A stretch of DNA of 64,000 bases, taken from NCBI GenBank assembly GCA_963662665.2, contig CAXXJS010000031.1, positions 80,583 through 144,582 of the forward strand, read 5' to 3'. The DNA is from Candidatus Latescibacterota bacterium. GTDB taxonomy: Bacteria > Latescibacterota > UBA2968 > GCA-2709665. Each line of letters begins with the position of its first letter. Positions within the stretch are counted from its first letter, which is position 1. Positions 49,603 through 54,779 of this stretch are shown here, piece by piece. The position numbers were made by a program, and so were the translations under genes. Under the pieces are notes generated by a model. It saw only the letters and a list, made by a program, of their open reading frames with translations, searched no databases and was not told the origin of the DNA.

Positions 49603-50538
49603 ATGATCTACGTCGGTCTGGCTGTACTCTTGATTCTCGCAGTTGTCTTCAGTCTGACGCGAGGAAGGAGTCTGAGAATCGAGAGAAATCCTCAGGGAGA
49701 CGAAGCGCTGGCGGCAGAGGTGGCTGATATGGTGACCGAAGGCCGTACGGAACACCTGCCGGCGGTGAGACATCCGAAATTGGGAGGCGTGCTACACGAA
49801 TTGTTGACCCGCATGGGGATCGAGGCGGAACAGGTACTGGTCAGCCGTGGGTATACACGCGACGGCGGCGGAACGGGCGCCCCTGAAGAACAGTCCCGCA
49901 ATCTGAGGGTTCTTGATCCGGCGGAAACCATGATGCAGATTGTCGAGCAGGCGTTGCTGGTGGGAATTCAGGTTGCGCGTGTGGACGACGATTACGCCGG
50001 TGTGGGCGATGACCATCTTGACCTGGAGGCGCTTGCGCGCAAAGCCGAAGCCATTGAAATGGATCTCTTCGGCGCGGGGAAGCGCGATCGTTACGTGTTT
50101 TACGGCAAGGCCGCACTGGTGCTACAGGATATGCTCGAGGATGAAAGAGAAGCCGCTCGCAGGGAGGTCCTTCGAGGGCTGCTGAAGATGGTCGACGGCC
50201 GGATCGAGGCCTTCCAGGAGGAACTGGACAGGTCGATGGCATATATCCCGGAACCGGATACGTTGAGGTGGGGAGACAAGAGAGATCGGCAGTTGTATTA
50301 TTTCAAGATGGGCGTGACGAATTCGCTCAGACGAAGCGGACAGCTGGAGAGCCTGGGGCATCTCTACCGATACAGAGGGGTGAATTACGATGTCCAGGAA
50401 GCATACGATATGGCTGCCGAGGAGTGTCCGCAGCTCTTCGCGGCCGACGTGATCGGCATTGACGGCTTGCTTCAGATGGGGGCAGGTGAGGTCCGGGCGC
50501 TGGCACGGCAGGCCCTGCCGGAAGGCGGGCGGCGTTAA
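49603..50538 (+). CDS. membrane-anchored hypothetical protein
   Basis: N-terminal TM MIYVGLAVLLILAVVFSL and a helical body; GGAG upstream of ATG 49603. Confidence 0.65.
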   Translation: MIYVGLAVLLILAVVFSLTRGRSLRIERNPQGDEALAAEVADMVTEGRTEHLPAVRHPKLGGVLHELLTRMGIEAEQVLVSRGYTRDGGGTGAPEEQSRNLRVLDPAETMMQIVEQALLVGIQVARVDDDYAGVGDDHLDLEALARKAEAIEMDLFGAGKRDRYVFYGKAALVLQDMLEDEREAARREVLRGLLKMVDGRIEAFQEELDRSMAYIPEPDTLRWGDKRDRQLYYFKMGVTNSLRRSGQLESLGHLYRYRGVNYDVQEAYDMAAEECPQLFAADVIGIDGLLQMGAGEVRALARQALPEGGRR

Positions 50539-50564
50539 TCTACTGATTCGAAGATAAACGGGCG

Positions 50565-50595
50565 AAGCCGCCACGCAACGCGTGGCGGCTTTTCT
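50565..50595. terminator. terminator hairpin between convergent genes
   Basis: AAGCCGCCACGC-AAC-GCGTGGCGGCTT-TTCT. Confidence 0.75.
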
Positions 50596-50604
50596 GTTTC
50601 CATT

Positions 50605-50877
50605 CTACTCTTGTGACTTTTCGTAATAGGGCCGGACGCGTTCGATGACTTCCACGTCCAATTTGCATTCGGACACGATTTGCGTGAATTCCTCTGCCGG
50701 CATGCCGAGTTCCTCCAGGAACTTCCGGTCGGCCGGTCACGGGTAGACGTAGTCGCCGATGTTGTTCCGCAGCATGGCCCGGGCTTTGTCCGTAATCCGT
50801 GGCAGCCAGGGGATACCGCCCATGGCAAGCGTTCGCCCGCGTGGACGGAATTCGATGGACTCGTGCATGGTATCCAT
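50605..50877 (-). CDS. DUF5069-like protein with in-frame TGA, predicted selenoprotein (90 aa)
   Basis: AAGGAG RBS; MDTMHESIEFRPRGRTLAMGGIPWLPRITDKARAMLRNNIGDYVYP-TGA-PADRKFLEELGMPAEEFTQIVSECKLDVEVIERVRPYYEKSQE-TAG. TGA at 50739-50737, followed by a SECIS-like hairpin. Confidence 0.8.
50700..50736 (-). promoter_or_regulatory. candidate bacterial SECIS element
   Basis: After UGA: CCGG CCGA ccgga AGTTCC TGGA GGAACT CGG catg CCGG. The apical loop starts 19 nt after UGA and has G in its second position. Confidence 0.65.
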
Positions 50878-50961
50878 CTGGTCGGCTCCTTTCCGAATAG
50901 GGGTTGAATGTTAAAAAGATACGCGCAATCCGGTACAGAAGCAAATGCATATTCCGGTTAG

Positions 50962-51039
50962 CAATCCGTTGAAAAAGTCGCGCCTTGTCTTCGACCACAT
51001 GAGCCGGACGCAGCCCGGATGGACTTTTTCAACGGGCTG
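50962..51039. mobile_element. MITE copy 3 (78 bp)
   Basis: CAATCCGTTGAAAAAGTCGC...CCGGATGGACTTTTTCAACGGGCTG; flanks TTAG and TCAG. Confidence 0.78.
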
Positions 51040-51052
51040 TCAGGGGCTTACT

Positions 51053-51634
51053 TTACTGGCCTCGGCCAACCTTCCGGTAGATGGATAACGAAGTGCCGCC
51101 GTAGGTCTTCCGCATGCGCAATGACAGGCGCCGCGCGGCTGCGGGCAACTCCAGGTCTGCGACGTGTTGAATGAGGATGTGTCCCGACGGAGCAACAAGC
51201 GCGGATCCGCTCAGACGGGTGAGCACCGCGAGGGCGAACGGAACGTCGTTCAGTCGTTGCAGGTAAGGCGGGTCCGCGTATATAACGTCAAAATGCCGTT
51301 GTTCCGACTCAAGCAGCGGCACGAGTCTCTCGACGGGCTGATTCAGCAGGCGGATCTGTTTTTCCAAACCCCAGTCATTCAGCAGCTTTGAAATAAAGCC
51401 GTGCCTGCCGCGATTCGCTTCGTTCAGAAGCACCCTTGCGCCCCGGCTGTACGCCTCGAGTCCGATCTGACCCGAACAGGAAAAGAGGTCGAGAAAATAA
51501 ACGTGCTCAAGGCTGGCGCCCAGAATCGTGAATGCGGCCTCTTTGATCCTTCCCGGCGTTACACGGGCGTCGTCGTGTTTCCCGACGTCAAACGGAATGA
51601 TCCGGCCTTTAAGTTTACCCGTGACGATGCGCAT
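51053..51634 (-). CDS. rsmD: 16S rRNA m2G966 methyltransferase RsmD family
   Basis: MRIVTGKLKGR, IKEAAF, FLDLFSCSGQIGLEAYSRGA, FDVIYADPPY, KTYG. Confidence 0.88.
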   Translation of the reverse strand: MRIVTGKLKGRIIPFDVGKHDDARVTPGRIKEAAFTILGASLEHVYFLDLFSCSGQIGLEAYSRGARVLLNEANRGRHGFISKLLNDWGLEKQIRLLNQPVERLVPLLESEQRHFDVIYADPPYLQRLNDVPFALAVLTRLSGSALVAPSGHILIQHVADLELPAAARRLSLRMRKTYGGTSLSIYRKVGRGQ

Positions 51635-51782
51635 GAGAACAAACAAGCTACTGAAGAGTCGGTCGTCGCCTGCGCCACATGAGATCTGGTGTCGCGCCAC
51701 GGCGGGTTCGATCGAATTCGCGGCAAGTTGAAAAGGTGTTTCCGGGAGAATCAGTCCGACGAATGCGCGACGTGATTCCGCC

Positions 51783-54779
51783 TTAGAATCCCTCCAGCCT
51801 GCTCAGGTCCGCAATGCCGTCCGCAAGAGAGGCAATCCGCTGAACCAGAGCAAGGCGGGCGCGGCGAAGCACGGGATCTTCATCCATCACCAGGACTTCC
51901 TCGAAGAAGCCGTTAATTGGATCGCGCAGGTCGGCCAGCACCCTTTCCAGGGTTTCGATTTTGATTTCCGAACGATCCATGCTGCGGCGGGCGACCCGCC
52001 AATTCTGATCCAAGCTGCGCGAGGAAGGGGCTGGATCCGCGTCCGGATTCAATGGATGGATTTCATCCAGGTTCCGAACAATCCGTTTGCAACGCGCATA
52101 CGCATGAAGCGTTTCCGTCCAGTCTTCCGAACGTACCATGCGATCGAGGCCTTCCACGATGCGGCGGAACCCGAAAGGGGCGTCGCATCCGCCCGCAAGC
52201 GTGGCCTCGACGACGTCGTGGCGAAAACCTTCCTCTTTCAGCTGTACGCCCAGGCGGCGCAGGATGAACTCATGTGCGTCGCTAAGTCGATCGGAATCGA
52301 TTCGGATAGGCAAACCCGTTGCCGCCGCCTCCAGGCCTTTCTTCAGGGAGAAATGACAACGTCTCCCGATGAGTAGTGCCAGAAGGCCCAGCGCGTCCCG
52401 TCGCAGCCCAAAGGGATCGGCTGTAGACCGGGGCTTGATTCCGGCGCAGAACAGGCCGGCCAGGCTGTCCAGCCGGTCGGCTACGGAAACCGCAAATCCA
52501 GATTCGCTCGAAGGCAGTACATCGCCCGGAAACCGGGGGAGATAGTGTTCCTGGATGGCTGCGGCCACTGCGTCGGTCTCGCCGGACGACAGGGCGTAGT
52601 AACGGCCCATTACGCCCTGGAGGGCCGTTATTTCAACCACCATACCGGTTGCCAGGTCGGCTTTGCAGAGACGGGCTGCTCTTTTCGCAGTGTTCGTTCC
52701 ATGTTCCGTTAGACCCAGATCGTTTGCAACAACGGCGAGTAGTCGCTCGATTCGCTGGCTCTTGTCCCTTACGGAACCCAGTTTCTCCTGGTAGGTGAGG
52801 GTATCCAACCTCGGCAGGTAGTCTTCCAGGGGTTTTCGGCCGTCTTCCCTGTAAAAGAAGGCGGCGTCTGCATATCTGGCGCGAACGACGCTCTCGTTCC
52901 CGCGCACGACGGGGCCGGAATCGGCCGGCCGGCCGTTGGATACGGCCACGAACCAGGGCATTAGCCTGCCGGTGTGCGGGTGAACGACAGGGAAGTTGCG
53001 CTGGTATTTCTTGAGTACGGTAACCAGAACCTCCTCCGGTAGTTCAAGATGGGATTCATCGAAACCGCCGCGCAACGCGAAGGGCGCTTCGACCAGGTCG
53101 GTAACTTCGTCGAGTAGATCCGGATCTTTTTGTACGCTTCCGCCCACCAGACGCGCCTGTTCGAGAACCTGTTTCCAGATGGCTTGTCTTCGCCGATCGC
53201 GGTTCACAATCAGGCCTCGTTCTTCCATCTGACGATGGTACCTGCCGGCAGATTCCAGCGGGACGCGTGGGGCGCCATCTGGCCTCGATCCACGGCTGGT
53301 GCGTCCACTCGGGATCCGGGCGAAGTGGAACGGGATAATCTGGTTGCCAAAAAGAGCGACAATCCATCGGAGAGGTCGGGGATAAGCGAATCCATCGGAG
53401 TCCCAGCGCATCGTTTTCGGGAAGTTCAGGCCCGCAATCAGTTTCGGAAGGAGTTGCGTGAGGATTTCCTGCGTTTCGAGTCCGGATTCGTGGCGCCGCG
53501 CGTAGACGTACGCAACGCCTTTGTCGTCTCTCCGGTGTTCCACGGAACCTGGAGGGATTCCCTGCCCGCGACAGAATCCTTCAAGCGCGCGCGTGGGTTT
53601 TCCACCGCCGTCGTATGCAGCCTTGACAGCCGGGCCGCGCACTTCCCGTTCACGGTCCGGCTGACGACCCTCAAGGTCCCTGACGCAGGCGACCAGCCGT
53701 CTTGGTGTGCCCGAAATTTCGACGCCGCCGTATCCAAGCCTCTGTTCCATGAGAAGCGCGGGCAGACGTTTTTCGAGTTGCTCGATGCCGGACCGCACGT
53801 CGTGGGGCGGAAGTTCCTCTGATCCGATTTCCAGCAGAAGGTCGGCCCGCTCCAGGGATTTAAAGTTCCGTTGCGGCTGAGGGACCGCCGCGTCCTCAGT
53901 TTTCTTGATAAGGGGATGGCCGGAAGCTTCGCGCTGGCTGACAAAGCCCTCTGCGACCTGTCTTGCCAGATCGCGGATCCGGGCGAAGTACCGTGCACGT
54001 TCGGTAACGCCAATGGCCCCCCGGGTATCCAGAAGGTTGAAGGTGTGAGAGCACCGCAATACGTAGTCGTGTGCGGGAATGACGAGATTGCGGTCTATTG
54101 CCGCTCTGGCTTCCTCGAGGTAGAGATTGAACATCGTCTGCAGGCGTTCGACGTTTGCGTAATGGAACTCGTAGTTGCAATACTCCACTTCCTGCTGTCT
54201 GAGAATATCCCCGTAGGATACGCGCTCATTCCAGCGGAGTTGCCATACTTCGCGCACGTCCTGTACATACATGGCGATTCGTTCCATACCGTAGGTGATT
54301 TCCACGGACACGGGATCGAGCGACATGCCGCCGGCCTGCTGGAAATACGTGAACTGGGTGATTTCCAGGCCGTCCAGCCAGACCTCCCAGCCCAGGCCCC
54401 ACGCGCCCAGCCCGGGCGATTCCCAGTTGTCTTCCACGAAACGGACGTCGTGTTGCCCACGGATCAGACCCAACGCCTCCAGGCTCTCCAGGTAGAGTTC
54501 CTGGGGGTTGCCTGGTTCGGGTTTGAGAACAACCTGAAACTGCGTGTGCATCTGCATCCGGTTCGGATTCTCGCCGAATCGGCCGTCGTCGGGACGGAAG
54601 CTGGGCTCAACGTAGGCCACGTTCCAGGGCTCGGGTCCGAGTACGCGAAGCGCGGTACCGGGATTCCACGTACCTGCGCCCACCTTTTCGCTTAGCGGCT
54701 GCCAGATGATACACCCGTTATCCGCCCAGAATCGCTGGAGGCGGAGGATAAGATCCTGGAAAGTCGGTGTGGAACTCAC
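51783..54779 (-). CDS. glyQS: glycine-tRNA ligase, fused alpha and beta subunits
   Basis: Alpha: [47 protein letters not shown]. Beta: [35 protein letters not shown]. Single 998-aa ORF. Confidence 0.95.

What the first reader, a model, noticed from the sequence alone, without database searches (positions are those of the whole stretch)
50605..50877. Hidden candidate selenoprotein: DUF5069-like gene with UGA at the family Cys and a SECIS-like hairpin
Seen: the gene is missing from the ORF track. It has a strong AAGGAG RBS, ATG 50877, an in-frame TGA at codon 47 (YVYP-U-PAD), 43 further sense codons to TAG 50605, and a terminator hairpin just after. Directly 3' of the UGA the RNA folds into a hairpin (AGTTCC/GGAACT upper stem, TGGA loop, CCGG/CCGG base); the loop begins 19 nt after UGA and has G at its second position. 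Knowledge: that geometry fits the bacterial SECIS model, and from memory DUF5069 proteins read GG..LPR.IDKARA...GEY.Y.CP.D..FL..LG...EEF, which puts the TGA exactly on the conserved Cys. Inference: this is a Sec-containing member, implying a redox or catalytic role for that Cys. I do not know DUF5069 as a described selenoprotein family.
Basis: partly seen in the sequence, partly recalled or inferred. Interest (0 to 1): 0.9.

Follow-up and report, generated by a model that had tools for sequence, protein, structure and literature searches.

The report
New selenoprotein family: Sec-containing DUF5069
A small hidden gene in an uncultured Latescibacterota bacterium almost certainly encodes a selenocysteine-containing member of the uncharacterised DUF5069 family, which adds an apparently undescribed selenoprotein family and marks that family's conserved cysteine as its working residue.

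Summary
The minus-strand frame 50877..50605 has an AAGGAG ribosome-binding site, an ATG, one in-frame TGA at codon 47 and a TAG stop. Read through, it gives a 90-aa protein that passes Pfam DUF5069 (49.8 bits against a cut-off of 27).

- **Sec machinery:** the genome carries selA, selB and tRNA-Sec side by side, plus a selD that itself holds a TGA.
- **Conserved TGA:** the same codon is TGA in 50 of 61 related genomes and in 63 of 80 loci from public genomes. The other 17 loci read TGC or TGT.
- **Family cysteine:** the codon aligns with the Cys of the only solved family member, 3omd.
- **Hairpin:** a 6-bp stem with an invariant UGGA loop starts its loop 19 nt after UGA. All 63 Sec forms have it and compensatory changes maintain it. 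No Cys form keeps it intact.
- **Reading beyond the TGA:** the frame stays open and protein-like after the TGA, and TGA is the genome's commonest stop.
- **Prior description:** two full-text searches found no paper naming DUF5069 or PF16798. A 2026 table of 119 prokaryotic selenoprotein families does not list it.

The biochemical function is unknown. The fold is not thioredoxin-like and carries a single Sec at a helix N-cap.

The parts
50886..50891 (-). Shine-Dalgarno sequence AAGGAG, 8 nt before the ATG
   Evidence: Read directly from the sequence.
50605..50877 (-). Coding sequence of the 90-aa Sec-containing DUF5069 protein: ATG at 50877, UGA(Sec) as codon 47, TAG stop at 50607-50605
   Evidence: Translation. 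Pfam DUF5069 at 49.8 bits. Orthologs share the same start, the same TGA codon and a conserved C-terminal half.
50737..50739 (-). In-frame UGA read as selenocysteine (residue 47, motif YP-U-P-x-D)
   Evidence: TGA in 63 of 80 loci and TGC/TGT in 17. It aligns with the Cys of 3omd.
50708..50723 (-). Core of the SECIS element: 6-bp stem (50723-50718 with 50713-50708) and UGGA loop (50717-50714). The loop starts 19 nt after UGA.
   Evidence: RNAalifold predicts the same helix. Synonymous sites are frozen here.
50695..50739 (-). Full local structure from UGA through the lower stems (CCGGC/GCCGG and CCG/CGG), -20.3 kcal/mol
   Evidence: The lower stems are specific to each lineage and are not conserved in position.
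50564..50592 (.). 13-bp G+C-rich hairpin between the convergent genes, probably a bidirectional terminator
   Evidence: It is called terminator-like on the + strand only. The hairpin itself is visible on both strands.
51053..51700 (-). Upstream same-strand neighbour: RsmD-like 16S rRNA methyltransferase (PF03602). This position is conserved in 32 of 80 loci.
51783..54779 (-). Further upstream on the same strand: fused glycyl-tRNA synthetase alpha+beta (998 aa)

Best explanation
The locus is a genuine selenoprotein gene. The mRNA is translated from ATG 50877. At UGA codon 47, the hairpin just downstream acts as a bacterial SECIS element and recruits SelB carrying Sec-tRNA(Sec). Selenocysteine is inserted and translation continues to TAG 50605, giving a 90-residue short-form DUF5069 protein.

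Sec replaces the family's conserved Cys. In the model it sits at the N-cap of the second helix of a small beta-hairpin plus four-helix fold that is not thioredoxin-like. The protein has no second conserved Cys.

The most likely chemistry is therefore a single-selenol nucleophile or redox centre that is recycled by an external thiol or a partner protein. This last step is an inference.

**Shown here:** the gene anatomy, family membership, Sec/Cys pairing, a conserved and covarying hairpin, the Sec machinery, and TGA used as a normal stop elsewhere.

**Inferred:** actual Sec insertion, the redox role, and the substrate.
For: 1. **Sec machinery in the same genome.** selA (560 bits), selB (372 bits) and tRNA-Sec (73.6 bits) lie adjacent on contig C16. 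selD has its own in-frame TGA.
2. **Conserved TGA.**
   - 50 of 61 related genomes have an ortholog with exactly one TGA and 3 have none (my count from the table).
   - 28 of 30 fetched loci have TGA at codon 47 and 2 have TGC.
   - 63 of 80 genome-contig loci have TGA, 12 TGC and 5 TGT.
   - These sets overlap in genomes and are not independent.
3. **U on the family Cys.** It aligns with Cys in 25 of 29 database homologs and in 3omd. Cys fills the column in 110 of 168 domain rows of the 148 representatives aligned.
4. **Hairpin.**
   - 93% of cells are paired, against 82% in shuffles (0 of 500 shuffles reach it).
   - Pair 18-31 is GC in 44 and CG in 17 rows, with 0 unpaired. Pair 17-32 is AU 42, GU 12, GC 3, UA 3.
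   - RNAalifold finds the same helix.
   - The UGGA loop occurs in 63 of 63 Sec forms and 4 of 17 Cys forms. All six pairs form in 61 of 63 Sec forms and 0 of 17 Cys forms.
5. **Constraint at the RNA level.** Third codon positions vary in 35 of 35 downstream codons outside the hairpin, but in only 1 of the 6 hairpin codons.
6. **Translation beyond UGA.** The frame stays open for 41 or more codons in 28 of 28 sequences. The other two frames hold 20 and 43 stops. Variable sites by codon position are 22, 20 and 36 of 41.
7. **TGA is not reassigned.** It ends 1795 of 3314 long open frames in the genome. It is also the terminal stop of the same gene in 19 of 80 loci.
8. **SECIS constraints.** The hairpin meets the published bacterial limits: loop 3-9 nt, stem 4-16 bp, G in the first two loop positions, 16-37 nt spacing, MFE at most -7.5 kcal/mol (passages of PMC13188914).
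9. **Internal comparison.** The genome's own selD has a similar 6-bp stem with a 4-nt GGUC loop beginning 11 nt after its UGA (read from the sequence printed).
10. **Position in the structure.** The AF2 model has pLDDT 89.5 and puts residue 47 directly before helix 48-57.
Against: - No experimental evidence for selenium incorporation exists, and no RNA run was listed.
- The hairpin in the single window sequence is only z = -2.1. The 6-bp core alone is -5.8 kcal/mol.
- One genome with the TGA form (G023, 98% complete) has selA, but no selD above the cut-off was found there.
- Much of the covariation may rest on a few evolutionary events between clades, because related sequences are not independent.
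- For the redox inference:
  - the Cys column is Ser in 29 of 168 domain rows;
  - the position is a helix N-cap, where Ser is also structurally favoured;
  - gene neighbourhoods and domain fusions are heterogeneous and give no consistent functional signal;
  - the fold matches only an uncharacterised structure.
Confidence: 0.88

Rival explanations
1. It is a true selenoprotein, but Sec47 is not a redox catalyst. It might instead bind a metal or small ligand, carry selenium or sulfur as a selenotrisulfide or persulfide-type adduct, or act as a sensor residue of a regulatory module.
For: - DUF5069 domains are fused to very different partners. Of 10 multi-domain representatives, 3 carry Cupin_2. 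There is 1 each with a methyltransferase, an AI-2E transporter, a dienelactone hydrolase and DUF2249. This fits an accessory, sensor or carrier module.
- There is only one conserved Cys/Sec.
- Several invariant Arg/Lys residues (R13, R15, R27, K31, R33) could bind an anion.
- Tandem-domain proteins keep Cys in only one domain.
Against: - No metal-binding partner residues (His or a second Cys) are conserved.
- No metal, sulfur or selenium-handling genes are conserved next to it.
- By general knowledge of selenoproteins, and as the reviews read here state, most Sec residues sit in redox sites.
Confidence: 0.3
2. The UGA is read through or recoded without selenocysteine, for example by near-cognate Trp or Cys insertion, with the hairpin acting as a general readthrough stimulator. 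Alternatively, the 46-residue product that terminates at UGA is the functional one.
For: - Selenium insertion is not shown.
- G023 carries the TGA form without a detectable selD.
- Database gene callers produced a W at this position in P0006, and again in P0031 and P0151.
Against: - The alternative residue in orthologs is always Cys (17 of 17 non-TGA loci). This Sec/Cys pairing is the signature of Sec.
- The hairpin geometry fits the SelB-type SECIS.
- selA, selB and selC are complete in this genome.
- The sequence after the UGA is conserved as protein in every lineage, so a 46-residue product cannot be the whole story.
- The W calls are most simply artefacts of alternative-code gene calling.
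Confidence: 0.05
3. It is a pseudogene or a sequencing error: a DUF5069 gene with a simple nonsense mutation.
For: Taken alone, the window shows only one stop codon inside a family match.
Against: - The TGA is at the same codon in 63 of 80 loci, with identities from 97% down to 42%.
- The downstream frame stays open.
- Contigs of runs from three studies show no difference at the TGA.
Confidence: 0.01

Closest known systems
Pfam PF16798 (DUF5069); solved member PDB 3omd, an uncharacterised protein of Leptospirillum rubarum
   Same: - Sequence match above the Pfam cut-off.
- 3omd aligns over residues 12-81 with E = 2.4e-9.
- The predicted fold superposes on 3omd with a query-normalised TM-score of 0.79 and rmsd 1.7 A.
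- It shares the Y-x-[C/U]-P-x-D motif.
   Different: - It is a short form. 90 residues cover profile positions 4-74 of 133, so the C-terminal part of the model is missing.
- It has Sec in place of Cys.
- No function is known for any family member, and no paper in the searched library names the family.
Computationally predicted bacterial selenoprotein families with a single Sec and no UxxC/CxxU motif, as listed in Table 1 of PMC13188914
   Same: - In-frame UGA, Sec/Cys pairs and a bSECIS hairpin inside the coding region.
- Found in Sec-utilising bacteria.
- Function inferred only from the Sec position.
   Different: - DUF5069/PF16798 is not among the 119 families and subfamilies of that table.
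- The protein matches no NCBIfam model, so it matches none of the NF-numbered selenoprotein models.
- The fold is not thioredoxin-like, whereas that review says most characterised selenoproteins have a thioredoxin-like fold.
E. coli fdhF-type bacterial SECIS / consensus bSECIS model
   Same: - Hairpin directly 3' of the UGA inside the ORF.
- 4-nt apical loop with G-G at positions 2-3, a 6-7 bp upper stem and 19 nt spacing.
- All of these lie within the published limits.
   Different: - The loop sequence UGGA and the stem UUCC/GGAA are specific to this family.
- No Rfam model matches the element.
- Binding to SelB has not been tested.

Membership tests
Pfam DUF5069 (PF16798) | HMM score above the curated gathering cut-off | tested here: met
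   49.8 bits against a cut-off of 27, E = 5e-13, residues 12-82 on profile positions 4-74 of 133. The genome search with the family model also finds the locus with 1 TGA.
Pfam DUF5069 (PF16798) | Same fold as the solved member 3omd | tested here: met
   The AF2 model has pLDDT 89.5. Foldseek gives 3omd_A at E = 3.7e-4, TMq 0.79, rmsd 1.7 A over 79 columns, with no other hit at E <= 0.001.
Pfam DUF5069 (PF16798) | Full-length domain (about 133 profile positions) | tested here: not met
   Only positions 4-74 are covered. The 90-aa form is a conserved short subfamily, shown by 25 full-length database homologs of 81-112 aa.
Bacterial selenoprotein (SelB/SECIS-dependent UGA recoding) | In-frame UGA with conserved coding sequence on both sides | tested here: met
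Bacterial selenoprotein (SelB/SECIS-dependent UGA recoding) | Sec/Cys pair: homologs carry Cys at the aligned position | tested here: met
   17 of 80 loci have TGC/TGT. 25 of 29 database homologs have Cys, as does 3omd.
Bacterial selenoprotein (SelB/SECIS-dependent UGA recoding) | bSECIS hairpin: 3-9 nt loop, 4-16 bp stem, G in the first two loop positions, 16-37 nt from UGA, MFE <= -7.5 kcal/mol | tested here: met
   The criteria come from passages of PMC13188914. Here the loop is UGGA, the stem is 6-7 bp, the spacing is 19 nt and the MFE is -20.3 kcal/mol for 50739-50695. Covariation is. bSECISearch itself was not available.
Bacterial selenoprotein (SelB/SECIS-dependent UGA recoding) | selA, selB, selC and selD present in the genome | tested here: met
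   All four score over their curated cut-offs. One exception exists elsewhere: G023 carries the TGA form, but no selD was found there.
Bacterial selenoprotein (SelB/SECIS-dependent UGA recoding) | Selenium actually incorporated at the UGA | not testable with these tools
   This needs 75Se labelling or mass spectrometry.
Thioredoxin-fold / UxxC-type redox selenoproteins | Thioredoxin-like fold or a UxxC/CxxU motif | tested here: not met
   There is no second conserved Cys. The fold search finds only 3omd.

The most novel reading that the evidence does not exclude
Sec-DUF5069 is a previously undescribed selenoprotein family with a non-thioredoxin fold. It is probably ancestral as a Sec form in the 90-residue subfamily of Latescibacterota, Poribacteria and allied uncultured lineages, many of them labelled as sponge or marine MAGs. 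Its single selenol is the active centre of an unknown chemistry. That would give the first functional handle on the whole DUF5069 family, including its tandem and fused forms.
Probability: 0.7. Interest if true: 0.6.

Novelty: new member of a known kind. Interest (0 to 1): 0.58.

Why it matters
Sec almost always marks the chemically active residue of a protein. This finding therefore turns an anonymous domain family into one with a defined candidate active site, the Y-P-[U/C]-P-x-D motif at a helix N-cap. DUF5069 had 717 representative clusters at E <= 0.001.

The finding also adds a family to the prokaryotic selenoproteome that the 2026 inventory I read does not list. It shows that standard gene calling truncates this gene systematically. 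Nine of the 148 representatives aligned are N-terminal fragments that stop right at the UGA, and 3 more turned up.

The conserved hairpin and the nested Sec-to-Cys reversion (L073 and L075) make a clean natural example of the coupling between SECIS and codon identity.

Tried and rejected
- **NCBIfam:** no match at E <= 1.
- **Rfam:** a scan of 50400-51100 at E <= 10 gave only weak hits on the terminator hairpin and nothing on the SECIS.
- **Fold search against PDB:** only 3omd, so no functional lead.
- **Protein atlas:** With the natural Cys homolog P0002 it returned only DUF5069 clusters at scores of 0.87-0.89, below its own trust level.
- **Gene neighbourhood:** it splits into unrelated conserved contexts and gave no function.
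  - 32 loci have the order GlyQS, RsmD-like gene, then this gene.
  - 28 loci have two unknown ORFs, then this gene, an FNR-like reductase, a GT2 glycosyltransferase and a semialdehyde dehydrogenase.
  - Poribacteria loci have a prephenate dehydratase downstream.
- **Domain fusions:** they are heterogeneous.
- **Sequencing runs:** no RNA holder was listed, so nothing can be said about expression.
- **Contigs of run X8:** they do not cover 50760-51000, which says nothing either way.
- **Pseudogene, sequencing error and TGA reassignment:** all considered and rejected.
- **Complex prediction:** a homodimer or diselenide idea was considered, but no job was sent because nothing in the evidence claims binding.
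- **Supplementary files:** they were closed. Supplementary tables of large selenoproteome surveys could still list this family under a name such as 'hypothetical protein'.

Full report
**Observation.** On the minus strand, an AAGGAG motif (50891-50886) lies 8 nt before ATG 50877. The frame runs 46 sense codons to a TGA (50739-50737) and then 43 more sense codons to TAG (50607-50605). A mechanical ORF list holds only the 46-aa piece 50737..50877. This is why an ordinary gene track would miss or truncate the gene.

Directly after the TGA the RNA can fold into a stem-loop with three parts:
- a lower stem CCGGC/GCCGG;
- a middle stem CCG/CGG;
- an upper stem AGUUCC/GGAACU with loop UGGA.

The MFE is -25 kcal/mol for 66 nt, z = -2.1, and 6 of 200 shuffles fold as well. 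The 45 nt from the UGA fold at -20.3 kcal/mol. Taken alone, this is only modestly unusual.

A 13-bp G+C-rich hairpin follows the stop codon at 50564-50592. The consensus scan rates it terminator-like on the + strand, where the T-run lies, and it sits between two convergent genes.

**What the product is.** Read through, the frame gives 90 residues. The product passes Pfam DUF5069 (PF16798) at 49.8 bits against a cut-off of 27, covering profile positions 4-74 of 133. No NCBIfam model matches.

The only solved relative is PDB 3omd, an uncharacterised 145-residue protein. In the pairwise alignment the UGA position falls on the Cys of its Y-N-C-P-L-D motif.

Among 29 database homologs of similar length:
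- 25 have Cys there;
- 1 has W, most simply a TGA read by a gene caller under another code;
- 3 are N-terminal fragments that end exactly at ...Y-P.

A profile search of 1.84 billion representatives gave 717 proteins at E <= 0.001. I aligned 148 of the 150 listed, leaving out the two already in A1. This gave 168 domain rows, and the U column held:
- Cys in 110 rows;
- Ser in 29 rows, of which 16 are in tandem-domain proteins;
- W in 2 rows;
- a gap in 11 rows, 9 of them fragments that stop right before the column;
- other residues in 16 rows.

The caveat is that the Cys is predominant but not invariant across the wider family.

**Sec machinery and the genetic code.** The window's genome is 4.86 Mb in 66 contigs and 92% complete.
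- selA (560 bits), selB (372 bits) and tRNA-Sec (73.6 bits) lie next to each other on contig C16.
- selD (356 bits) itself contains one in-frame TGA.
- TGA ends 1795 of 3314 stop-to-stop frames of at least 300 codons, so it is the commonest ordinary stop.
- In 19 of 80 orthologous loci the same gene that carries the internal TGA also ends in TGA.

A reassigned code is therefore excluded. The recoding must depend on context.

**Conservation of the TGA.** Three overlapping sets of genomes were examined.
- A search of 61 genomes (own genus, family, order and class) found an ortholog with exactly one TGA in 50. An ortholog without a stop was found in 3 (G022, G034, G059). The other 8 gave only weaker paralog or fragment hits, or nothing (my count).
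- In the 30 loci fetched from that search, 28 have TGA at codon 47 and 2 have TGC.
- A scan of one genome per species found 196 stretches that encode a relative. Of the 80 kept, 63 have TGA, 12 TGC and 5 TGT at the aligned codon. Protein identity to the window runs from 97% down to 42%.

These sets overlap in genomes and are not independent.

The record titles name Latescibacterota, Poribacteria, Handelsmanbacteria and MAGs labelled Gemmatimonadota or Planctomycetota. The window's closest relatives are Latescibacterota MAGs.

A quick maximum-likelihood tree of the 80 proteins, with the U/C column masked, needs at least 6 Sec/Cys changes, 3 of them forced by well-supported branches. The Cys pair L073/L075 is nested deep inside a Sec clade. 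With only 83 columns, many forks are unresolved.

The two Cys-form genomes of that genus still have selA and a TGA-containing selD, so they are Sec users that replaced this one Sec. G059 (86% complete) has the Cys form, and neither selA nor selD was found in it.

One result runs against expectation. G023 (98% complete) has the TGA form and selA, but no selD over the cut-off was found.

**The hairpin as a SECIS element.** I aligned 63 nt from the TGA for 61 distinct Sec-form sequences, and no gaps were needed.
- RNAalifold predicts one helix, columns 17-22 with 27-32.
- For the 7-pair version, 93.0% of cells pair, against 81.9% in column shuffles (0 of 500 reach it) and at most 62% when the partner is slid by 1-3 columns.
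- Pair 18-31 is G-C in 44 rows and C-G in 17, with none unpaired.
- Pair 17-32 is A-U 42, G-U 12, G-C 3, U-A 3, and 1 unpaired.
- Pair 16-33 is A-U 17, C-G 16, and 28 unpaired.

Related sequences share history, so these counts overstate the number of independent events. The G-C to C-G swap separates clades and involves one third-position change coupled to a Leu/Val change.

Across all 80 loci, Sec and Cys forms differ as follows:

| Feature | Sec forms (63) | Cys forms (17) |
|---|---|---|
| Loop is UGGA | 63 | 4 |
| All six pairs form | 61 (the other 2 have five) | 0 |
| Exact 12-mer of stem, loop and stem | 60 | 1 |

In the 28 close Sec orthologs, third codon positions vary in 35 of 35 downstream codons outside the hairpin, but in only 1 of the 6 hairpin codons. 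The constraint is therefore on the RNA, and it relaxes when Cys replaces Sec.

The element meets the published bacterial SECIS limits as given in the Fig. 2 legend of PMC13188914 (passages read): a 3-9 nt loop, a 4-16 bp stem, G in the first two loop positions, 16-37 nt spacing, and an MFE of at most -7.5 kcal/mol. Here the values are a 4-nt loop U-G-G-A, a 6-7 bp stem, 19 nt spacing and -20.3 kcal/mol.

The lower stems differ between lineages and are not conserved in position. In the same genome, selD shows a comparable 6-bp stem with a 4-nt GGUC loop that begins 11 nt after its UGA. I read this from the sequence printed, although the 63-nt MFE there chose another fold.

**Translation beyond the UGA.** In 28 of 28 close orthologs the frame stays open for the 41 codons examined. 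The other two frames hold 20 and 43 stops in total. Variable sites by codon position are 22, 20 and 36 of 41.

The C-terminal half is less conserved than the N-terminal half. Pairwise synonymous and non-synonymous codon differences are 3800 and 4927 downstream, against 6336 and 3450 upstream. Its helices are nevertheless predicted with high confidence.

Contigs of runs from three studies cover 50400-51010 or further with no difference at the TGA. A base-call error is therefore excluded, although one run may be the window's own source.

**Structure and likely mechanism.** AlphaFold2 on the 30-row alignment gives pLDDT 89.5. The model has a beta-hairpin (residues 18-23) and four helices (25-36, 48-57, 61-70, 74-89). 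Residue 47 lies immediately before helix 2.

Foldseek finds only 3omd (TMq 0.79), so this is not a thioredoxin-like or any other known redox fold. The invariant residues in the short subfamily are P12, R13, R15, G20, W24, L25, R27, D30, K31, R33, A34, G41, Y43, Y45 and P46, with U/C47. There is no second conserved Cys.

It is established that Sec normally occupies the reactive site and pairs with catalytic Cys. From that, I infer a single-selenol nucleophile or redox centre at a helix N-terminus, recycled by an external thiol or partner. A ligand-binding, carrier or sensor role is a live rival for four reasons:
- Ser replaces Cys in 17% of the domain rows.
- Tandem proteins, including this genome's own 3-domain paralog at C3:7017-8261, keep Cys in only one domain.
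- Fusions are to unrelated partners.
- Neighbourhoods differ between clades.

**Comparison with what is known.** Full-text searches for 'DUF5069' and 'PF16798' returned 0 papers. 'Selenoprotein' together with 'Latescibacteria' returned 3 papers, and the 2 listed have unrelated titles (listing only).

I read Table 1 of the May 2026 review PMC13188914 in full. It lists 119 families and subfamilies with their domain identifiers, and neither DUF5069 nor PF16798 is there. The passages I read of the deep-Sep paper (PMC12013277) list nine other new families. None of the database names seen for homologs says selenoprotein.

I therefore rate this as a new member of a known kind. The decoding mechanism is textbook. 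The family, and the fact that its fold is not thioredoxin-like, appear to be new.

**Verdict.** Confidence that this is a genuine Sec-encoding gene is about 0.9. Confidence in a redox or nucleophile role for Sec47 is about 0.5. Interest is moderate to high for selenoprotein and DUF specialists.

Noticed in passing
window 50990-51046 (intergenic, between the RsmD-like gene and the DUF5069 gene): A roughly 50-nt repeat with an internal inverted repeat (CAGCCCG...CGGGCUG). blastn-short finds 82 matches across the genome's contigs. Summed contig depth jumps from about 5-8 to 230-780 at 51000-51047 in three runs. It looks like a REP/MITE-like intergenic element.
   Followed up: partly
G000:C3:7017-8261 (outside the window; loci L025-L027): A 437-aa open frame holds three tandem DUF5069 domains. 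Only the middle one keeps the Y-x-C-P-x-D Cys. The outer two have G-D-D-S-G-L-D and A-E-N-S-G-L-D in that place. Similar three-domain proteins recur in relatives and among the representatives.
   Followed up: partly
G000:C40:300099-301019 (locus L014): selD of this genome is itself a selenoprotein gene (one in-frame TGA). A 6-bp stem with a GGUC loop starts 11 nt after its UGA. This is a useful internal comparison for what this organism's SelB may recognise.
   Followed up: partly
G023 (relative, same order): This genome carries the TGA form of the gene and selA. No selD over the cut-off was found, although completeness is 98% in 2 contigs. This is unexplained. selD may lie in a missing or withheld stretch.
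   Followed up: partly
window 51783-54779 (-): Glycyl-tRNA synthetase alpha and beta subunits are fused into one 998-aa frame (PF02091 + PF02092 + DALR), upstream on the same strand as the RsmD-like gene and the selenoprotein gene.
   Followed up: no
proteins P0031, P0151, P0006 (database representatives): These database translations carry W at the Sec position, presumably TGA read as Trp by a gene caller using another code. P0151 has a different downstream peptide (no F-L-E-E). It may mark a second, independent Sec lineage within DUF5069. Its DNA could not be fetched.
   Followed up: no
loci L060, L063, L066, L070, L078 and others: MAGs titled Gemmatimonadota, Gemmatimonadetes or Planctomycetota carry orthologs 88-94% identical to those of Latescibacterota MAGs and group with them in the tree. 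The phylum labels of these records look inconsistent.
   Followed up: no
window 50577-50579: The contig of run X7 differs from the window at three adjacent bases in the loop of the intergenic terminator hairpin. The stem is unchanged.
   Followed up: no
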